Shown: one piece after another, positions 1-13,690 of the stretch | How positions within the stretch are numbered: the stretch's first letter is position 1 | Layout of the letters: each line of letters begins with the position of its first letter | DNA from: a virus | Lineage: Duplodnaviria > Heunggongvirae > Uroviricota > Caudoviricetes | Virus record (IMG/VR): IMGVR_UViG_2695420589_000006 | Strand: one strand, 5' to 3' | DNA length: 14,761 nucleotides | Made by a program: the position numbers and the translations under genes | The notes under the pieces: model-generated | What the model was told of the DNA's origin: nothing | The model's database searches: none | Seen by the model: the letters and a program-made list of their open reading frames with translations, nothing else

Positions 1-82
1 TACGCCGGACCACCGTTCCGCCGACCAGACTCTGTAGATCTTCCGCCATCCCGGTGACCATACCGTACAGGTTAGAAACCAT
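1..82 (-). CDS. L: Tail tip protein L, partial: reading frame opens with ATG at 82..80 and runs off the window start; only the part matching the middle of lambda gpL is present
   Basis: Minus-strand translation from 82 gives MVSNLYGMVTGMAEDLQSLVGGTVVRR, matching the internal gpL segment I recall (…TVSNLYGMVTGMAEDMQSLVGG…). An in-frame TGA lies 5 codons upstream at 97..95. The N-terminal ~80 codons of L are not found anywhere upstream. Confidence 0.55.
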   Translation of the reverse strand, partial: MVSNLYGMVTGMAEDLQSLVGGTVVRR

Positions 83-408
83 CTCACCACCTGTTCAAAC
101 TCTGCGCTGAACTCAACACGCAGCATACTGACCCGCGACGACCATTTTGCGCAGGTCACCTTTATCTGCCGCCACTCATAAGGCGGCGTCCACAGAAAGG
201 CTTTCCAGCCCCCGTGCTCTTCCAGAAACGACTCCAGTACCATGGCCTCCTCACGGGGGACAGAAAGCGTCACGCTGTACGTTTTCAGGTTGGCATTCAG
301 CCCGGCAGGCGCTCGCTGGGAATAGCCATCACCAAAGCGCACCTTTCTTACAGAAGGGGCCGAAGCCACATCCATACCGGGTTTCACTTTCCAGCGGAAG
401 GTTTTCAT
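1..408 (-). CDS. M: Minor tail protein M; the M-homologous part is about 82..408, but there is no in-frame stop at the expected end and the frame stays open to the window edge
   Basis: ATG at 408..406 overlaps the H stop in an ATGA. Translation is MKTFRWKVKPGMDVASAPSVRKVRFGDGYSQRAPAGLNANLKTYSVTLSVPREEAMVLESFLEEHGGWKAFLWTPPYEWRQIKVTCAKWSSRVSMLRVEFSAEFEQVV, then continues as RWFLTCTVWSPGWRKIYRVWSAERWSGV with no stop. Not in the ORF track because it has no stop inside the window. Confidence 0.8.
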   Translation of the reverse strand, partial: MKTFRWKVKPGMDVASAPSVRKVRFGDGYSQRAPAGLNANLKTYSVTLSVPREEAMVLESFLEEHGGWKAFLWTPPYEWRQIKVTCAKWSSRVSMLRVEFSAEFEQVVRWFLTCTVWSPGWRKIYRVWSAERWSGV

Positions 409-2966
409 CGTCCACCTCCGGAGAACAGGCCACCATCACGCATCTGTGTCTGAATTTCATCACGGGCACCCTTGCGGGCCATGTCATACACGGCCTTCAT
501 CATCTGTGGACCTGGCAGACCATTCGTACCGTCGTTCTGAATCACCACGTGATTGTTCTGATTAAAATTAATGCCTTCAGCCCGCCGCATCTGCGCCGGA
601 CTTCCGGCACCGCCCACATAACCACCTTCCGCATAGCCGCGCATCAGCCGGTAGAGATTCCCCACGCCAATCCGGCTGGTTGCCTCCTTCGTGAAGACAA
701 ATTCACCACGGTGAACAATCCCCGCTGGCTCATATTTGCCGCCGGTTCCCGTAAATCCCCCGGTTGCAAAATGGAATTTCGCCGCAGCGGCCTGAATGGC
801 TGTACCACCTGACGCGGATGCGCCGCCACCAACAGCCCCGCCAATGGCGCTGCCGATACTCCCGACAATCCCCACCATTGCCTGCTTAAGCAGAATTTCT
901 GTCATCATGGACAGCACGGAGCGGGTGAAGCTGCGCCAGTTCTGTTCACTGCCGGTCAGCATCGCCGCCATATTCTGTGCAATACCATCAAAGGTCTGCG
1001 TGGCTGCACTTTTAACCTGTGACATACTGTCCGTGGCGCTCTCTTCCCACTCACTCCAGCCGGACTTCAGGCCTGCCATCCAGCTCCCGCGAAGCTGGTC
1101 TTCAGCCGCCCAGGTCTTTTTCTGCTCTGACATGACGTTATTCAGCGCCAGAGGATTATCGCCATACTGTTCCTTCAGGCGCTGTTCCGTGGCTTCCCGC
1201 GCTGCCTGCCGGTCAGTCAGCCCCCGGTTTTTCGCATCAATGGCTGCCCGTTTTGCCCGTTGCTGCTGTGCGAATTTATCCGCCTGCTGCGCCAGCGCAT
1301 TCAGGTGCTCCTGATACGTAACCTTGTCACCAAGTGCAGCCAGCTGGCGTTTGTACTCCAGCGTCTCGTCTTTATGCGCCAGCAGGGATTTCTCCTGTGC
1401 GGACAGCTGGCGACGTTGTGCCGCCTCCTCCAGTACCGCGAACTGACTTTCTGCCTTCCACAAATCCCGGCGCTGCTGGCTGATTTTCTCATTCGCTCCG
1501 GCATGCTTCTCCAGCGTCCGGAGTTCTGCCTGAAGCGTCAGCAGGGCCGCATGAGCACTGTCTTCCTGACGATCGCCCGCATACACCTTCACGCCGGACT
1601 GTTTCGGCTTTTTCAGCGTCGCTTCATAATCCTTTTTCGCCGCCGCCATCAGCGTGTTGTAATCTGCCTGCAGGATTTTTCCGTCTTTCAGTGCCTTGTT
1701 CAGTTCTTCCTGACGGGCGGTATATTTCTCCAGCGGCGTCTGCAGCCGTTCGTAAGCCTTCTGCGCCTCTTCGGTATATTTCAGCCGTGACGCTTCGGTA
1801 TCGCTCTGCTGCTGCGCATTTTTGTCCTGTTGACGCTGTTGATCTACCCTCTTTTGGGCTGCATCCCGCTCCAGGCGTTTTTTTTCACGATCATCCCAGT
1901 AACGCGCCCGTGCTTCATCGTTAACGAAATAATCATCCTTGCGCAGATTCCAGATGTCGTCTGCTTTCTTAAACGCAGCCTCTGCCTTAATCAGCATCTC
2001 CTGCGCGGTATCAGGACGACCAATATCCAGCACCGCATCCCACATGGATTTGAATGCACGTGCAGTCCTGTCTGCCCAGGTCTCCAGCGTGCCCATGTTC
2101 TCTTTCAGGCGGCGGGTCTGGTCATCAAACCCTTTCGTTGCGGCCTCGTTCGCCGCCTGCAATGCCCCGGCTTCATCGCCGGAACGCTGCAACTGAGCAA
2201 CATACGCAATCTGCTCCGCCGTCACGTTATGGAACTGGCGTGCCATCGCCGTCAGCCCCGACGTCGGGTCTGTGGTCAGCTTCCCGAAGGCTTCAGCGAC
2301 CTTGTCCACCTCCACGCCGGATGCAGAGGAGAAACGCGCCACACTCTGGCTGATGGACGCAATCTGAGCCTCACCGCTTACCCCCGCCTTAACCAGTGCG
2401 CTGAGTGACTCGCTGGTCTGGTTAAACGTCAGCCCTGCCGCCTGCCCGGCTCTGGACAGGACCAGCATACGATCTGCCGTCAGTCCCGCCTGATTACCGG
2501 AAAGGACCAGCGTTTTGTTGAAATCGGACAGGGTTGAGTTGCCCTGATACCAGGCATACGCCAGCGCACCGGTCGCCACCGCCAGCGAGGTGGCCCCCAC
2601 CATCGGCAGGGTGATCGCGCCGGCAAGCCCCCTGAACATGGGGATCATCCCGCCGAAGGAGTCCTTAACCTGACCACCCTGTTGCAGCAGGATCAGCCAG
2701 GGATTCTGCCCCCCTGCAAGCTGCGTGGCCACGTCGGTGAACTGTGCAGGCAGCATACGCATGGCGGCTTTATACTGCCCGACGGAAATCCCCGCTTTCT
2801 GTGCAGCCAGCGCCTGTCGGCTCAGCGACTGTTCAACGACTGCCGCTGTTTTTTTCGCATCACTTTCCGTACCGGAAAAATGACGCCTGACTCTGGCCAT
2901 CTGCTCGTCAAATCTGGCCGCATCCAGACTCAAATCAACGACCAGATCGCCTACCGGTTCAGCCAT
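405..2966 (-). CDS. H: Tail tape measure protein H (853 aa)
   Basis: ORF track 405..2966, 853 aa, begins MAEPVGDLVVDLSLDAARFDEQ; same length and N-terminus as lambda gpH. Long coiled-coil-like middle and Gly-rich C-terminus. 8-bp overlap with T upstream. Confidence 0.95.
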   Translation of the reverse strand: MAEPVGDLVVDLSLDAARFDEQMARVRRHFSGTESDAKKTAAVVEQSLSRQALAAQKAGISVGQYKAAMRMLPAQFTDVATQLAGGQNPWLILLQQGGQVKDSFGGMIPMFRGLAGAITLPMVGATSLAVATGALAYAWYQGNSTLSDFNKTLVLSGNQAGLTADRMLVLSRAGQAAGLTFNQTSESLSALVKAGVSGEAQIASISQSVARFSSASGVEVDKVAEAFGKLTTDPTSGLTAMARQFHNVTAEQIAYVAQLQRSGDEAGALQAANEAATKGFDDQTRRLKENMGTLETWADRTARAFKSMWDAVLDIGRPDTAQEMLIKAEAAFKKADDIWNLRKDDYFVNDEARARYWDDREKKRLERDAAQKRVDQQRQQDKNAQQQSDTEASRLKYTEEAQKAYERLQTPLEKYTARQEELNKALKDGKILQADYNTLMAAAKKDYEATLKKPKQSGVKVYAGDRQEDSAHAALLTLQAELRTLEKHAGANEKISQQRRDLWKAESQFAVLEEAAQRRQLSAQEKSLLAHKDETLEYKRQLAALGDKVTYQEHLNALAQQADKFAQQQRAKRAAIDAKNRGLTDRQAAREATEQRLKEQYGDNPLALNNVMSEQKKTWAAEDQLRGSWMAGLKSGWSEWEESATDSMSQVKSAATQTFDGIAQNMAAMLTGSEQNWRSFTRSVLSMMTEILLKQAMVGIVGSIGSAIGGAVGGGASASGGTAIQAAAAKFHFATGGFTGTGGKYEPAGIVHRGEFVFTKEATSRIGVGNLYRLMRGYAEGGYVGGAGSPAQMRRAEGINFNQNNHVVIQNDGTNGLPGPQMMKAVYDMARKGARDEIQTQMRDGGLFSGGGR

Positions 2967-3812: not shown

Positions 3813-4636
3813 TTAACTGGCGGTGACGTTGATTTCTGCAACCGCAGCAAACTCACCATTACCAGATACGACCGGAATGTTGACCTTGCCTGCAGCAACA
3901 CCTTTCACGGTGATGGTCATACCACTGACCGACACGGTGGCTTTTGTTTTATCCGCAGACACCGCACGGAAGCTCTTGTCGGTTGCGCCATCCGGCTGGA
4001 ATGCCACGGTCAGCGTGGTGCTCTGCCCTTTCACTACGGAAGCACTGGCGGGTGTCACCGTCATGCCGGTCGTCGCCGTCACCGTGCTGCGATCTTCTGC
4101 CATCGACGGACGTCCCACATTGGTGACCTTCACCGTGCGGGTAATCACCTCCTTCGCCGTCACCGCCTTACCGATACTGCTGACCCAGCCACGGAACACA
4201 TCGACCGTGCCGTTCGGGAAGCGGATTTTATAGGCACGGGTATCACCTTCATTAAACCACGCCAGCNNNNNNNNNNNNNNNNNNNNNNNNNNNNNNNNNN
4301 NNNNNNNNNNNNNNNNNNNNNNNNNNNNNNNNNNNNNNNNNNNNNNNNNNNNNNNNNNNNNNNNNNNNNNNNNNNNNNNNNNNNNNNNNNNNNNNNNNNN
4401 NNNNNNNNNNNNNNNNNNNNNNNNNNNNNNNNNNNNNNNNNNNNNNNNNNNNNNNNNNNNNNNNNNNNNNNNNNNNNNNNNNNNNNNNNNNNNNNNNNNN
4501 NNNNNNNNNNNNNNNNNNNNNNNNNNNNNNNNNNNNNNNNNNNNNNNNNNNNCGCATAAGGGTCACCGCTCCCCTTATAAACCCACAGGGTGGTCCCGGC
4601 ACCTTTCACCGGCATTGTAGGATTTGGTACAGGCAT
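3813..4636 (-). CDS. V: Major tail protein V, interrupted by the N-run 4267..4552
   Basis: ATG at 4636 with GAGGA SD, N-terminus [28 protein letters not shown]. After the gap the sequence reads …[40 protein letters not shown]… through to …AEINVTAS (ORF 3813..4199). The two halves are in different frames only because of the N-run length. Confidence 0.9.
4267..4552. other. N-run (286 nt) inside V
   Basis: Run of n characters in the sequence. Confidence 1.
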
Positions 4637-9173: not shown

Positions 9174-12925
<3,752 letters not shown>

Positions 12926-12951
<26 letters not shown>

Positions 12952-13471
12952 TCAGCAACCCCGGTATCAGTTCATCCAGCGCGGCTGCTTTGTTCATGGC
13001 TTTGATGATATCCCGTTTCAGGAAATCAACATGTCGGTTTTCCAGTTCCGGAAAACGCCGCTGCACCGACAGGGGGATCCCGTCGAGAATACTGGCAATT
13101 TCACCTGCGATCCGCGACAGCACGAAAGTACAGAATGCGGTTTCCACCACTTCAGCGGAGTCTCTGGCATTTTTCAGCTCCTGTGCGTCGGCCTGCGCAC
13201 GCGTAAGTCGATGGCGTTCGTACTCAATAGTCCCTGGCTGGAGATCTGTCTCGCTGGCCTGCCGCAGTTCTTCAACTTCCCGGCGCAGCTTTTCGTTCTC
13301 AATTTCAGCATCCCTTTCGGCATACCATCTTATAACGGCGGCAGAGTCATAAAGCACCTCATTACCCTTGCCACCGCCTCGCAGAACGGGCATTCCCTGT
13401 TCCTGCCAGTTCTGAATGGTACGGATACTCGCACCGAAAATGTCAGCCAGCTGCTTTTTGTTGACTTCCAT
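12926..13471 (-). CDS. Nu1: Terminase small subunit Nu1 (181 aa)
   Basis: ORF track 12926..13471, MEVNKKQLADIFGASIRTIQNWQEQGMPVLRGGGKGNEVLYDSAAVIRWYAERDAEIENEKLRREVEEL… with a winged-HTH N-terminus; it sits directly downstream of cosB. Confidence 0.95.
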
Positions 13472-13495: not shown

Positions 13496-13690
13496 AGAAA
13501 GGAAACGACAGAGGCCAAAAAGCCCGTTTTCAGCACCTGTCGTTTCCTTTCTTTTCAGGGGGTGTTTTAAATAAAAACATTAGGTTACGGCGAAGAAGAA
13601 CGGAAACGCCTTAAACCGGAAAATTGTCATAAATAGCGAAAACCCGCGCGCCTTCCGCCCCGTAACCTGTCGGATCGCCGGAAAGGACCC
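13496..13690 (-). other. cos: cos packaging site: cosB (R1 about 13496..13510, R2 about 13538..13552, R3 about 13597..13612), putative cosN 12-mer 13649..13660, cosQ-like segment about 13661..13690
   Basis: Minus strand reads …ACAGGTTACG GGGCGGAAGGCG CGCGGGTTTTCGCTATTTATGACAATTTTCCGGTTTAAGGCGTTTCCGTTCTTCTTCG…GAAAGGAAACGACAGG…CTGTCGTTTCCTTTCTCTG… and then the Nu1 ATG. The R-site motifs CGTTTCC(T/G)TTCT occur three times in the lambda arrangement. Confidence 0.8.

What the first reader, a model, noticed from the sequence alone, without database searches (positions are those of the whole stretch)
13641..13670. cosN cohesive-end 12-mer differs from the lambda sequence at six contiguous positions while the flanks are conserved
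The minus strand reads ACAGGTTACG-GGGCGGAAGGCG-CGCGGGTTTTCGC. The lambda cohesive end I recall is GGGCGGCGACCT in exactly this context. The flanking cosQ-like sequence and the cosB R3/R2/R1 sites are nearly identical to lambda, but positions 7-12 of the 12-mer read AAGGCG instead of CGACCT. This also removes part of the local dyad symmetry of cosN. If real, gpA must nick a different cosN, or this cos is non-functional, which would fit a defective prophage together with the M-L lesion. Near-lambda Nu1/A proteins paired with a changed cosN are unusual.
Basis: partly seen in the sequence, partly recalled or inferred. Interest (0 to 1): 0.5.

Follow-up and report, generated by a model that had tools for sequence, protein, structure and literature searches.

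The report
Natural alternative lambda cohesive-end allele
The changed cohesive-end sequence is real, but it is a naturally circulating, almost certainly working version of the lambda DNA-cutting site, altered only in the half that the phage enzyme is already known not to read, so it is ordinary rather than a sign of decay.

Summary
The window's minus strand carries a complete lambda-type cos. The 12-mer is GGGCGGAAGGCG (13660..13649); lambda has GGGCGGCGACCT. Five of the six right-half positions differ (7, 8, 9, 10, 12); C11 is kept. The left half, both CG dinucleotides beside the nick sites, cosQ, R3, R2, R1 and the spacing to R3 are unchanged.

This is not a private lesion. The same 12-mer occurs in about 155 of 5,426 complete E. 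coli genomes, roughly 2% of lambda-type cos sites. It also occurs in 51 IMG/VR contigs with at least 12 unrelated upstream contexts. It is the only cos-like site of phage PhiR46_1, an isolated temperate phage whose TerL differs from lambda's at 3 of 641 residues.

No terminase residue tracks the allele. Identical Nu1 proteins and one identical full-length gpA occur with both alleles.

Published work already shows that bp 7-12 of cosN vary naturally and that right-half changes do not measurably affect cos cleavage.

Verdict: a functional cosN allele of a known kind. It is more divergent than the published examples I could read, and I found no paper that mentions it. The prophage may still be defective, because of a separate 240-bp M-L deletion. 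Low interest.

The parts
13649..13660 (-). cosN cohesive-end 12-mer GGGCGGAAGGCG. Inferred nick N1 lies on the minus strand between 13661 and 13660. Inferred nick N2 lies on the plus strand between 13649 and 13648.
   Evidence: Aligned base for base with the physical left end of lambda J02459. Nick positions are inferred by homology and were not measured.
13649..13654 (-). Variable right half, bp 7-12: AAGGCG where lambda has CGACCT. Five of six positions differ; C11 is kept.
   Evidence: The five changed positions are identical in all 58 variant-class loci compared (those loci were collected by searching for this hexamer).
13655..13662 (-). Conserved left half GGGCGG (bp 1-6) plus the CG dinucleotide (-2,-1) 5' of nick N1.
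   Evidence: Invariant in every aligned phage. This is the part reported to be under selection (PMC4669245; Vahanian 2017 as paraphrased in PMC9303873).
13647..13648 (-). Conserved CG dinucleotide (bp 13-14) flanking nick N2.
13684..13690 (-). cosQ heptamer GGGTCCT at -30..-24, the packaging-termination element.
   Evidence: same offset as in lambda. Assigning this heptamer as cosQ rests on my own knowledge; PMC4669245 says only that the 7-bp cosQ is highly conserved.
13596..13611 (-). cosB R3 (bp +50..+65), the Nu1 binding site that positions gpA for the N2 nick.
   Evidence: Identical to lambda in sequence and offset. R3 coordinates are from PMC9026076.
13537..13552 (-). cosB R2 (inverted R element).
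   Evidence: Identical to lambda, same offset.
13496..13511 (-). cosB R1.
   Evidence: Identical to lambda.
12926..13471 (-). Nu1 (small terminase subunit), 181 aa.
   Evidence: It differs from lambda Nu1 at 3 residues. The identical protein occurs in 7 contigs with lambda-type cosN and 5 with the variant.
10990..12951 (-). A (large terminase subunit, gpA), GTG start as in lambda. Residues about 379-497 are hidden by N-masked runs at 11463-11673 and 11740-11817.
   Evidence: The visible 378 + 156 residues are 100% identical to gpA of four contigs with lambda-type cosN.

Best explanation
This is a working lambda-type cos site that carries a naturally circulating alternative allele of the cohesive end. 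Nu1 binds R3/R2/R1 of cosB, which are unchanged here and keep the same spacing to R3. That binding anchors gpA so that it nicks the bottom strand 12/13 regardless of the local sequence. A second gpA nuclease domain recognises the conserved left half-site (CG^GGGCGG) and nicks the top strand. The product is a 12-nt 5' overhang GGGCGGAAGGCG with the same G+C content and nearly the same predicted annealing energy as lambda's. No change in terminase is needed, because bp 7-12 are the part of cosN that lambda-type terminase does not read. Shown here: the sequence, its distribution, its presence as the only cos-like site of an isolated phage, and the absence of any co-varying terminase residue. Inferred: the nick positions, and that this particular copy is cut.
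For: (1) The same 12-mer sits in the same cosQ-cosN-cosB frame in PhiR46_1 (PV340565) and YDC107_1 (CP025712).
(2) PhiR46_1 has only this one cos-like site, a complete Nu1-to-J lambda virion module, and telL/telR plus ParAB. [quoted passage not shown]
(3) PhiR46_1 gpA differs from lambda gpA at 3 of 641 residues (N9D, S21A, T466I), and each of these is also seen with lambda-type cosN.
(4) Among 58 complete gpA sequences (25 variant, 33 lambda-type) and 94 Nu1 sequences, no residue co-segregates with the allele. One identical full-length gpA and the three commonest Nu1 sequences occur with both alleles.
(5) The window's visible gpA is 100% identical to gpA of four contigs with lambda-type cosN.
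(6) Distribution: 166 places in 155 of 5,426 complete E. coli genomes, against 8,142 places for the lambda allele. There are 51 IMG/VR contigs, 18 upstream-sequence clusters covering at least 12 unrelated contexts, and three cosB types.
(7) Everything reported as conserved or selected is intact: bp 1-6, both flanking CG dinucleotides, cosQ, and R3 with its spacing.
(8) Literature (PMC4669245). bp 7-12 vary naturally: N15 and phiD326 differ at 9 and 12, Gifsy-1 at 8, 9 and 11. Right-half mutations have no measurable effect on cos cleavage. G2C is harmful, whereas the symmetric C11G is silent. Lambda TerL uses cosN-N15 as well as its own. PMC12315714 gives mEp213/LLS as GGGCGGCGCGCT.
(9) G+C is 10/12 in both alleles, and nearest-neighbour dG37 is -17.8 versus -18.2 kcal/mol.
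Against: No physical mapping of virion DNA ends exists for any phage with this allele. No phage record starts at the variant 12-mer. Published tolerance data cover one to three right-half changes, not five at once. This particular prophage carries a 240-bp M-L deletion. Its near-identical relatives have a lineage-specific L404R in the gpA nuclease domain, and that region is N-masked in the window. This copy may therefore never be cut in practice. PhiR46_1's viability is taken from record metadata and a strain table, because the primary paper (Brenes & Laub 2025) is not held.
Confidence: 0.85

Rival explanations
1. The cos is dead: the hexamer change is a lesion in a decaying prophage and terminase cannot cut it.
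For: The window's prophage has a 240-bp deletion across the M-L junction relative to all best-matching phages and genomes. Four other variant-bearing contigs (L138 type) belong to a prophage that lacks TerL through the N-terminal part of E.
Against: The identical hexamer is the only cos-like site of the isolated phage PhiR46_1. It sits on 16 extrachromosomal elements of about 46 kb and in at least 12 unrelated upstream backgrounds. All 25 variant-class gpA sequences recovered at full length are intact 641-aa ORFs. A lesion would not be found unchanged in so many mosaic backgrounds.
Confidence: 0.04
2. Terminase has co-evolved: gpA (or Nu1) of these phages carries specificity changes that match the new right half-site.
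For: In principle cosN has two half-sites, each read by a gpA nuclease domain. From my own recollection (not checked in a paper here), suppressors that broaden gpA specificity have been isolated in lambda genetics.
Against: No residue in 641-aa gpA or 181-aa Nu1 co-segregates with the allele. Identical proteins are found with both alleles.
Confidence: 0.02
3. The allele is functional and is also maintained by selection as a cohesive-end incompatibility type. An AAGGCG end mismatches a lambda-type end at 5 of 12 positions. Chimeric chromosomes that start at one phage's cos and end at a co-resident phage's cos would therefore fail to cyclise. This would isolate the phage genetically in polylysogens.
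For: IMG/VR holds two discrete allele islands and no multi-step intermediates: CGACCT at least 119 (count truncated), AAGGCG 33-51, and only one to two copies each of one-step neighbours. The dimorphism recurs in three cosB contexts. Plasmid-borne sites are strongly enriched, 16/166 against 20/8,142, odds ratio 43. E. coli genomes carry up to 8 lambda-type cos sites. A 2-bp end mismatch already lowers viable yield about fourfold (PMC4669245).
Against: There is no direct evidence of selection. Founder effect plus recombination in the invariant flanks explains the same pattern. The counts are of related, non-independent sequences. The allele is rare (about 2%).
Confidence: 0.08
4. Sequencing or assembly error, or an artefact of the window.
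For: The window contains four N-masked runs, so it has been processed.
Against: Three independent contigs at 99.95-99.97% identity and more than 200 other public sequences carry the same 12-mer.
Confidence: 0.01

Closest known systems
Bacteriophage lambda cos (J02459: cosQ-cosN-cosB, cut by gpNu1/gpA)
   Same: Same architecture and offsets: cosQ at -30..-24, 12-bp cosN, bp 1-6 and both flanking CG identical, R3/R2/R1 identical. Nu1 differs at 3 of 181 residues. gpA of the lineage differs at 4 of 641.
   Different: bp 7, 8, 9, 10 and 12 of the cohesive end differ. Symmetric pairs drop from 5 to 4. There is one A-to-C change in the cosN-R3 spacer (+35) and a few changes in the R3-R2 and R2-R1 spacers.
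Published natural right-half cosN variants: N15 and phiD326 (bp 9, 12), Gifsy-1 (bp 8, 9, 11), mEp213/LLS (GGGCGGCGCGCT)
   Same: Changes are confined to bp 7-12. The left half, flanking CG and cosQ are conserved. For N15, lambda TerL has been shown to use the variant as efficiently as its own site (PMC4669245; PMC12315714).
   Different: Those variants differ from lambda at 2-3 positions and mostly sit with diverged terminases (N15 TerL is 64.9% identical to lambda's). This allele differs at 5 positions and sits with TerL that is 99% or more identical to lambda's. I found the exact 12-mer, or its reverse complement, in no paper in a phage context. Vahanian et al. 2017 could not be read.
cos of Escherichia phage PhiR46_1 (PV340565) and YDC107_1 (CP025712, Ravinvirus)
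   Same: Identical 12-mer, cosQ, R3, R2, R1 and Nu1-A arrangement.
   Different: These are N15-like linear phage-plasmids (telL/telR, ParAB, large primase). The window is a chromosomal lambdoid prophage with a lambda-like late region upstream of cos. There are two differences in the 10 bp left of cosN (-10 and -5), and Nu1 differs at 13 residues.

Membership tests
Lambda-type cos site (cosQ-cosN-cosB) of lambda-like phages | 12-bp cosN whose left half (bp 1-4, in practice 1-6, GGGCGG) is conserved | tested here: met
   GGGCGG is identical to lambda and to all aligned phages.
Lambda-type cos site (cosQ-cosN-cosB) of lambda-like phages | Conserved 5'-CG-3' dinucleotides flanking both nick positions | tested here: met
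   positions -2,-1 and +13,+14 are CG. This criterion comes from PMC4669245.
Lambda-type cos site (cosQ-cosN-cosB) of lambda-like phages | 7-bp cosQ upstream of cosN at the lambda distance | tested here: met
   GGGTCCT at -30..-24, as in lambda.
Lambda-type cos site (cosQ-cosN-cosB) of lambda-like phages | cosB with R3 at bp 50-65 (critical cosN-to-R3 spacing), plus R2 and R1 | tested here: met
   R3, R2 and R1 are identical to lambda, with no indel between cosN and R3.
Lambda-type cos site (cosQ-cosN-cosB) of lambda-like phages | IHF site I1 between R3 and R2 | not tested
   The R3-R2 spacer has 5 substitutions relative to lambda, most of them shared with viable phages. No IHF consensus scan was run.
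Lambda-type cos site (cosQ-cosN-cosB) of lambda-like phages | Adjacent Nu1 and A terminase genes immediately downstream | tested here: met
   Part of A is N-masked in the window.
Lambda-type cos site (cosQ-cosN-cosB) of lambda-like phages | Staggered nicks 12 bp apart that yield 5' cohesive ends in virion DNA | not testable with these tools
   This needs end-mapping of virion DNA. No phage record begins at the variant 12-mer.
Lambda-type cos site (cosQ-cosN-cosB) of lambda-like phages | Twofold rotational symmetry of part of cosN | tested here: met
   4 symmetric pairs against 5 in lambda; the nick-proximal pairs -2:14, -1:13 and 2:11 are kept.
Natural right-half (bp 7-12) cosN variants tolerated by lambda-type TerL | Differences from lambda confined to bp 7-12 | tested here: met
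Natural right-half (bp 7-12) cosN variants tolerated by lambda-type TerL | Carried by a phage that produces infectious particles | tested here: met
   PhiR46_1 has the variant as its only cos-like site and is listed as an isolated temperate phage. This is indirect, because the primary isolation paper is not held.
Natural right-half (bp 7-12) cosN variants tolerated by lambda-type TerL | Cleavage efficiency by lambda TerL equal to that at cosN-lambda | not testable with these tools
   Only inferred, from identical TerL occurring with both alleles.

The most novel reading that the evidence does not exclude
cosN of lambda-like coliphages is a two-state polymorphism (CGACCT versus AAGGCG) with no multi-step intermediates. 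It recurs across several cosB/TerS modules and is about 40-fold enriched on N15-like phage-plasmids. The alternative overhang would be maintained by selection as a cohesive-end incompatibility type. It would stop chromosomes that begin at one resident phage's cos and end at another's from cyclising, and so would act as a barrier to cross-packaging in polylysogens.
Probability: 0.1. Interest if true: 0.4.

Novelty: new member of a known kind. Interest (0 to 1): 0.15.

Why it matters
It matters little for biology at large. It shows that a changed cohesive end should not be read as a sign of a dead prophage, and that tools which recognise cos by the lambda 12-mer will miss about 2% of lambda-type cos sites in E. 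coli. For packaging specialists, it is a natural experiment. A TerL essentially identical to lambda's is paired with a right half-site changed at 5 of 6 positions. That extends, in silico, the published conclusion that bottom-strand nicking is set by Nu1-R3 anchoring and not by local sequence. The two-allele pattern and the phage-plasmid enrichment are a small lead on how cohesive ends evolve and move between phages.

Tried and rejected
- gpA/Nu1 co-variation with the allele: none found.
- Source of the window: the best complete E. coli genome is only 99.0% identical over 1.86 kb. Escherichia sp. E1V33, the single hit in the species-representative genomes, is 97.6% identical and is not the source. 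The closest sequences are the IMG/VR contigs L149, L172 and L183.
- Literature search for the 12-mer and its reverse complement: only unrelated plant and Streptomyces papers.
- Papers that could not be read: Vahanian et al. 2017 (pmid 28646648) is not held, and a search for Brenes & Laub 2025 returned only papers citing it.
- Intermediate alleles: six exhaustive pattern scans of IMG/VR found only one to two copies each of one-step neighbours.
- Three of the four distinct single-base variants of the lambda allele move towards the variant's base. That is not significant (P about 0.11 by my own hand calculation, not a tool result), so I dropped the idea that they are conversion patches.
- A phage record that starts at the variant end, which would be evidence of mapped termini: none.
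- Catalytic context of gpA residue 404: not resolved. My 'D401' recollection surfaced only in a T4 gp17 paper. The only fact retrieved for lambda was that the nuclease domain spans residues 373-623.
- Not used, because they do not bear on the question: the metagenome scan, structure prediction and Rfam.

Full report
**Observation.** On the minus strand the window reads ...GGGTCCTTTCCGGCGATCCGACAGGTTACG|GGGCGGAAGGCG|CGCGGGTTTTCGCTATTTATGACAATTTTCCGGTTTAAGGCGTTTCCGTTCTTC.... The 12-mer lies at 13660..13649 and occurs once, with none expected by chance. The replaced block is the six-base right half. Only positions 7, 8, 9, 10 and 12 differ; C11 is shared. At the local 4.2% divergence from lambda, such a cluster is very unlikely by chance (about 4e-4 after scanning the region).

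**What is unchanged.** The rest of cos is lambda's.
- cosQ GGGTCCT sits at -30..-24.
- R3 (+50..+65), R2 and R1 are identical to lambda.
- There is no indel between cosN and R3.
- Nu1 (12926-13471) and A (10990-12951) follow directly downstream.
- Dyad symmetry falls only from five to four symmetric pairs, and the nick-proximal pairs are retained.

**The allele is not private to this window.**
- Lambda, DE3, 2H10, Chlobot, several PhiR phages and the Stx1a phages all have CGACCT.
- A 41-nt probe centred on the variant hits 166 places in 155 of 5,426 complete E. coli genomes, 16 of them on replicons of about 46 kb. The lambda probe hits 8,142 places in 4,288 genomes. The variant is therefore about 2% of lambda-type cos sites.
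- It is in 51 IMG/VR contigs and in one of the species-representative genomes, Escherichia sp. E1V33.
- Three IMG/VR contigs are 99.95-99.97% identical to the window and carry the same 12-mer, which rules out an assembly error.
- Across 60 variant loci, the sequence further upstream falls into 18 clusters covering at least 12 unrelated contexts.
- The allele occurs with three different cosB types.

**A viable phage uses it.**
- Two phage records carry the allele: PhiR46_1 and YDC107_1.
- PhiR46_1 is bounded by telL and telR, encodes ParA/ParB and a large primase, and has a full lambda virion module from Nu1 to J and Stf.
- Its only cos-like site is the variant.
[quoted passage not shown] Its GenBank host is ECOR13.
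- Its gpA differs from lambda's at 3 of 641 residues, and each of those is also found with lambda-type cosN.

**No terminase adaptation.**
- Two N-masked runs hide gpA residues about 379-497 in the window.
- The visible 378 + 156 residues are 100% identical to gpA of four contigs that have lambda-type cosN.
- Among 58 complete gpA sequences (25 variant, 33 lambda-type), no residue co-segregates with the allele, and one identical full-length gpA occurs with both alleles.
- The three commonest Nu1 sequences also occur with both. The window's exact Nu1 is found with lambda-type cosN seven times and with the variant five times.

**Mechanism.** The published model explains the tolerance.
- Feiss et al. 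2015 (PMC4669245) report that bp 7-12 differences are common among lambda-like phages. N15 and phiD326 differ at 9 and 12; Gifsy-1 differs at 8, 9 and 11.
- They report that right-half mutations have no measurable effect on cos cleavage, and that G2C lowers yield tenfold whereas the symmetric C11G is silent.
- They report that the two CG dinucleotides flanking the nicks and cosQ are conserved, and that lambda TerL uses cosN-N15 as well as its own site.
- The asymmetry depends on cosB: Nu1 bound at R3 positions gpA for the bottom-strand nick.
- Vahanian et al. 2017, as paraphrased in PMC9303873, found the first four bases and the two bases on either side of the cohesive end to be the conserved part.
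- PMC12315714 gives GGGCGGCGCGCT for mEp213 and LLS.

The window's site keeps every element reported as selected and changes only the unselected hexamer. The overhang keeps 10/12 G+C and nearly the same predicted annealing energy, -17.8 against -18.2 kcal/mol. I therefore conclude, at about 0.85 confidence, that this is a functional cosN allele cut at the homologous positions by unmodified lambda-type terminase. The nick positions, and cleavage of this particular copy, are inferred.

**What is mildly unusual.** An exhaustive set of pattern scans of IMG/VR under the conserved flanks found these alleles:

| Right half (bp 7-12) | Copies |
|---|---|
| CGACCT (lambda) | at least 119 (scan truncated) |
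| AAGGCG (this allele) | 33 (51 with a looser left flank) |
| TGACCT | 2 |
| AGACCT | 1 |
| CAACCT | 1 |
| CGACCG | 1 |
| CAGGCG | 1 |

- There are thus two allele islands five changes apart, with no multi-step intermediates.
- Both flanks of the window's hexamer occur elsewhere with the lambda allele. The left flank matches 2H10 and Chlobot. The right flank matches the Stx1a phages, apart from positions +15 and +35.
- The hexamer therefore moves as a unit, by recombination in the invariant 30-bp and 22-bp flanks, or through the mismatched-end route described by Feiss et al. 2015.
- The allele is enriched on plasmid-borne (N15-like) elements, with an odds ratio of 43. The counts are not independent.
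- These patterns allow, but do not demonstrate, selection for a cohesive-end incompatibility type. I rate that at about 0.1.

**Is the prophage defective?** It may be, but not because of cos. Window bases 1-83 and 84 onward flank a 240-bp deletion relative to every best-matching phage and genome. The deletion removes the end of M and about the first 79 codons of L. The near-identical contigs also carry gpA L404R, which is unique among the 58 sequences and lies in the nuclease domain, residues 373-623 per PMC10810279. That region is masked in the window, so the change cannot be asserted for it.

**Novelty and score.** The kind of feature, natural right-half cosN variation tolerated by lambda-type terminase, is established. 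This allele is more divergent than the published examples I could read. It is paired with TerL that is 99% or more identical to lambda's. Neither the 12-mer nor its reverse complement appears in a phage context in any searchable paper. Vahanian 2017 could not be checked. I file it as a new member of a known kind, with interest 0.15.

Noticed in passing
window 1-420 (junction at 83/84): There is a 240-bp deletion relative to all best-matching phages and E. coli genomes. A 330-nt query maps as two pieces spanning 570 bp. The deletion removes the end of tail gene M and about the first 79 codons of L. No record with the same deletion appeared among the best matches listed. The prophage is probably tail-defective, independently of cos.
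   Followed up: partly
window 4267-4552, 9791-10079, 11463-11673, 11740-11817: Four runs of N (286, 289, 211 and 78 bases). The last two lie inside gene A and hide gpA residues about 379-497. The 211-base run is not a multiple of three, so the naive translation changes frame between the two runs.
   Followed up: yes
L149, L183 (IMG/VR contigs 99.95-99.97% identical to the window); corresponds to the masked part of window gene A: gpA of this prophage lineage carries L404R. The change is unique among 58 complete gpA sequences and lies in the nuclease domain. It is not linked to the cosN allele in general, and its effect is unknown.
   Followed up: partly
PV340565.1 (L188, L191, L198); E. coli plasmids such as NZ_CP101200.1: PhiR46_1 is an N15-like linear phage-plasmid (telL/telR, ParAB, 1,331-aa primase) that carries a virion module about 95-99% identical to the window's lambda-type one. 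The variant cosN is about 40-fold enriched on replicons of about 46 kb: 16 of 166 places, against 20 of 8,142 for the lambda allele.
   Followed up: partly
L190 (CAGGCG), L001 and L194 (AGACCT), L192 and L193 (TGACCT), L195 (CAACCT), L077 (CGACCG): These are rare one-step neighbours of the two main cosN alleles. AGACCT and CAGGCG look like reciprocal exchanges between positions 7 and 8, but they could equally be independent point mutations at position 7.
   Followed up: partly
window 13626 (position +35 of cos, minus strand): An A-to-C change in the otherwise near-invariant spacer between cosN and R3 (ATGACAATTTT where lambda has ATGAAAATTTT). It is seen in 8 of 58 variant-class loci and 1 of 124 lambda-class loci.
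   Followed up: no
L138, L142, L170, L177: Here the variant cosN sits next to a completely different cosB and a different TerS-like gene (MKLHLMNKKNMAKSCRV...). In L138, TerL through the N-terminal part of the capsid gene E is missing and replaced by other ORFs, which indicates a deleted prophage. The same cosB type also occurs with lambda-type cosN (3 contigs).
   Followed up: partly
PV340536.1 versus J02459.1, position about +138 of cos: The resequenced laboratory lambda, the window and the other natural phages all have one G fewer in the R2-R1 spacer than the 1982 reference. This puts the Nu1 ATG at +190 instead of +191.
   Followed up: no
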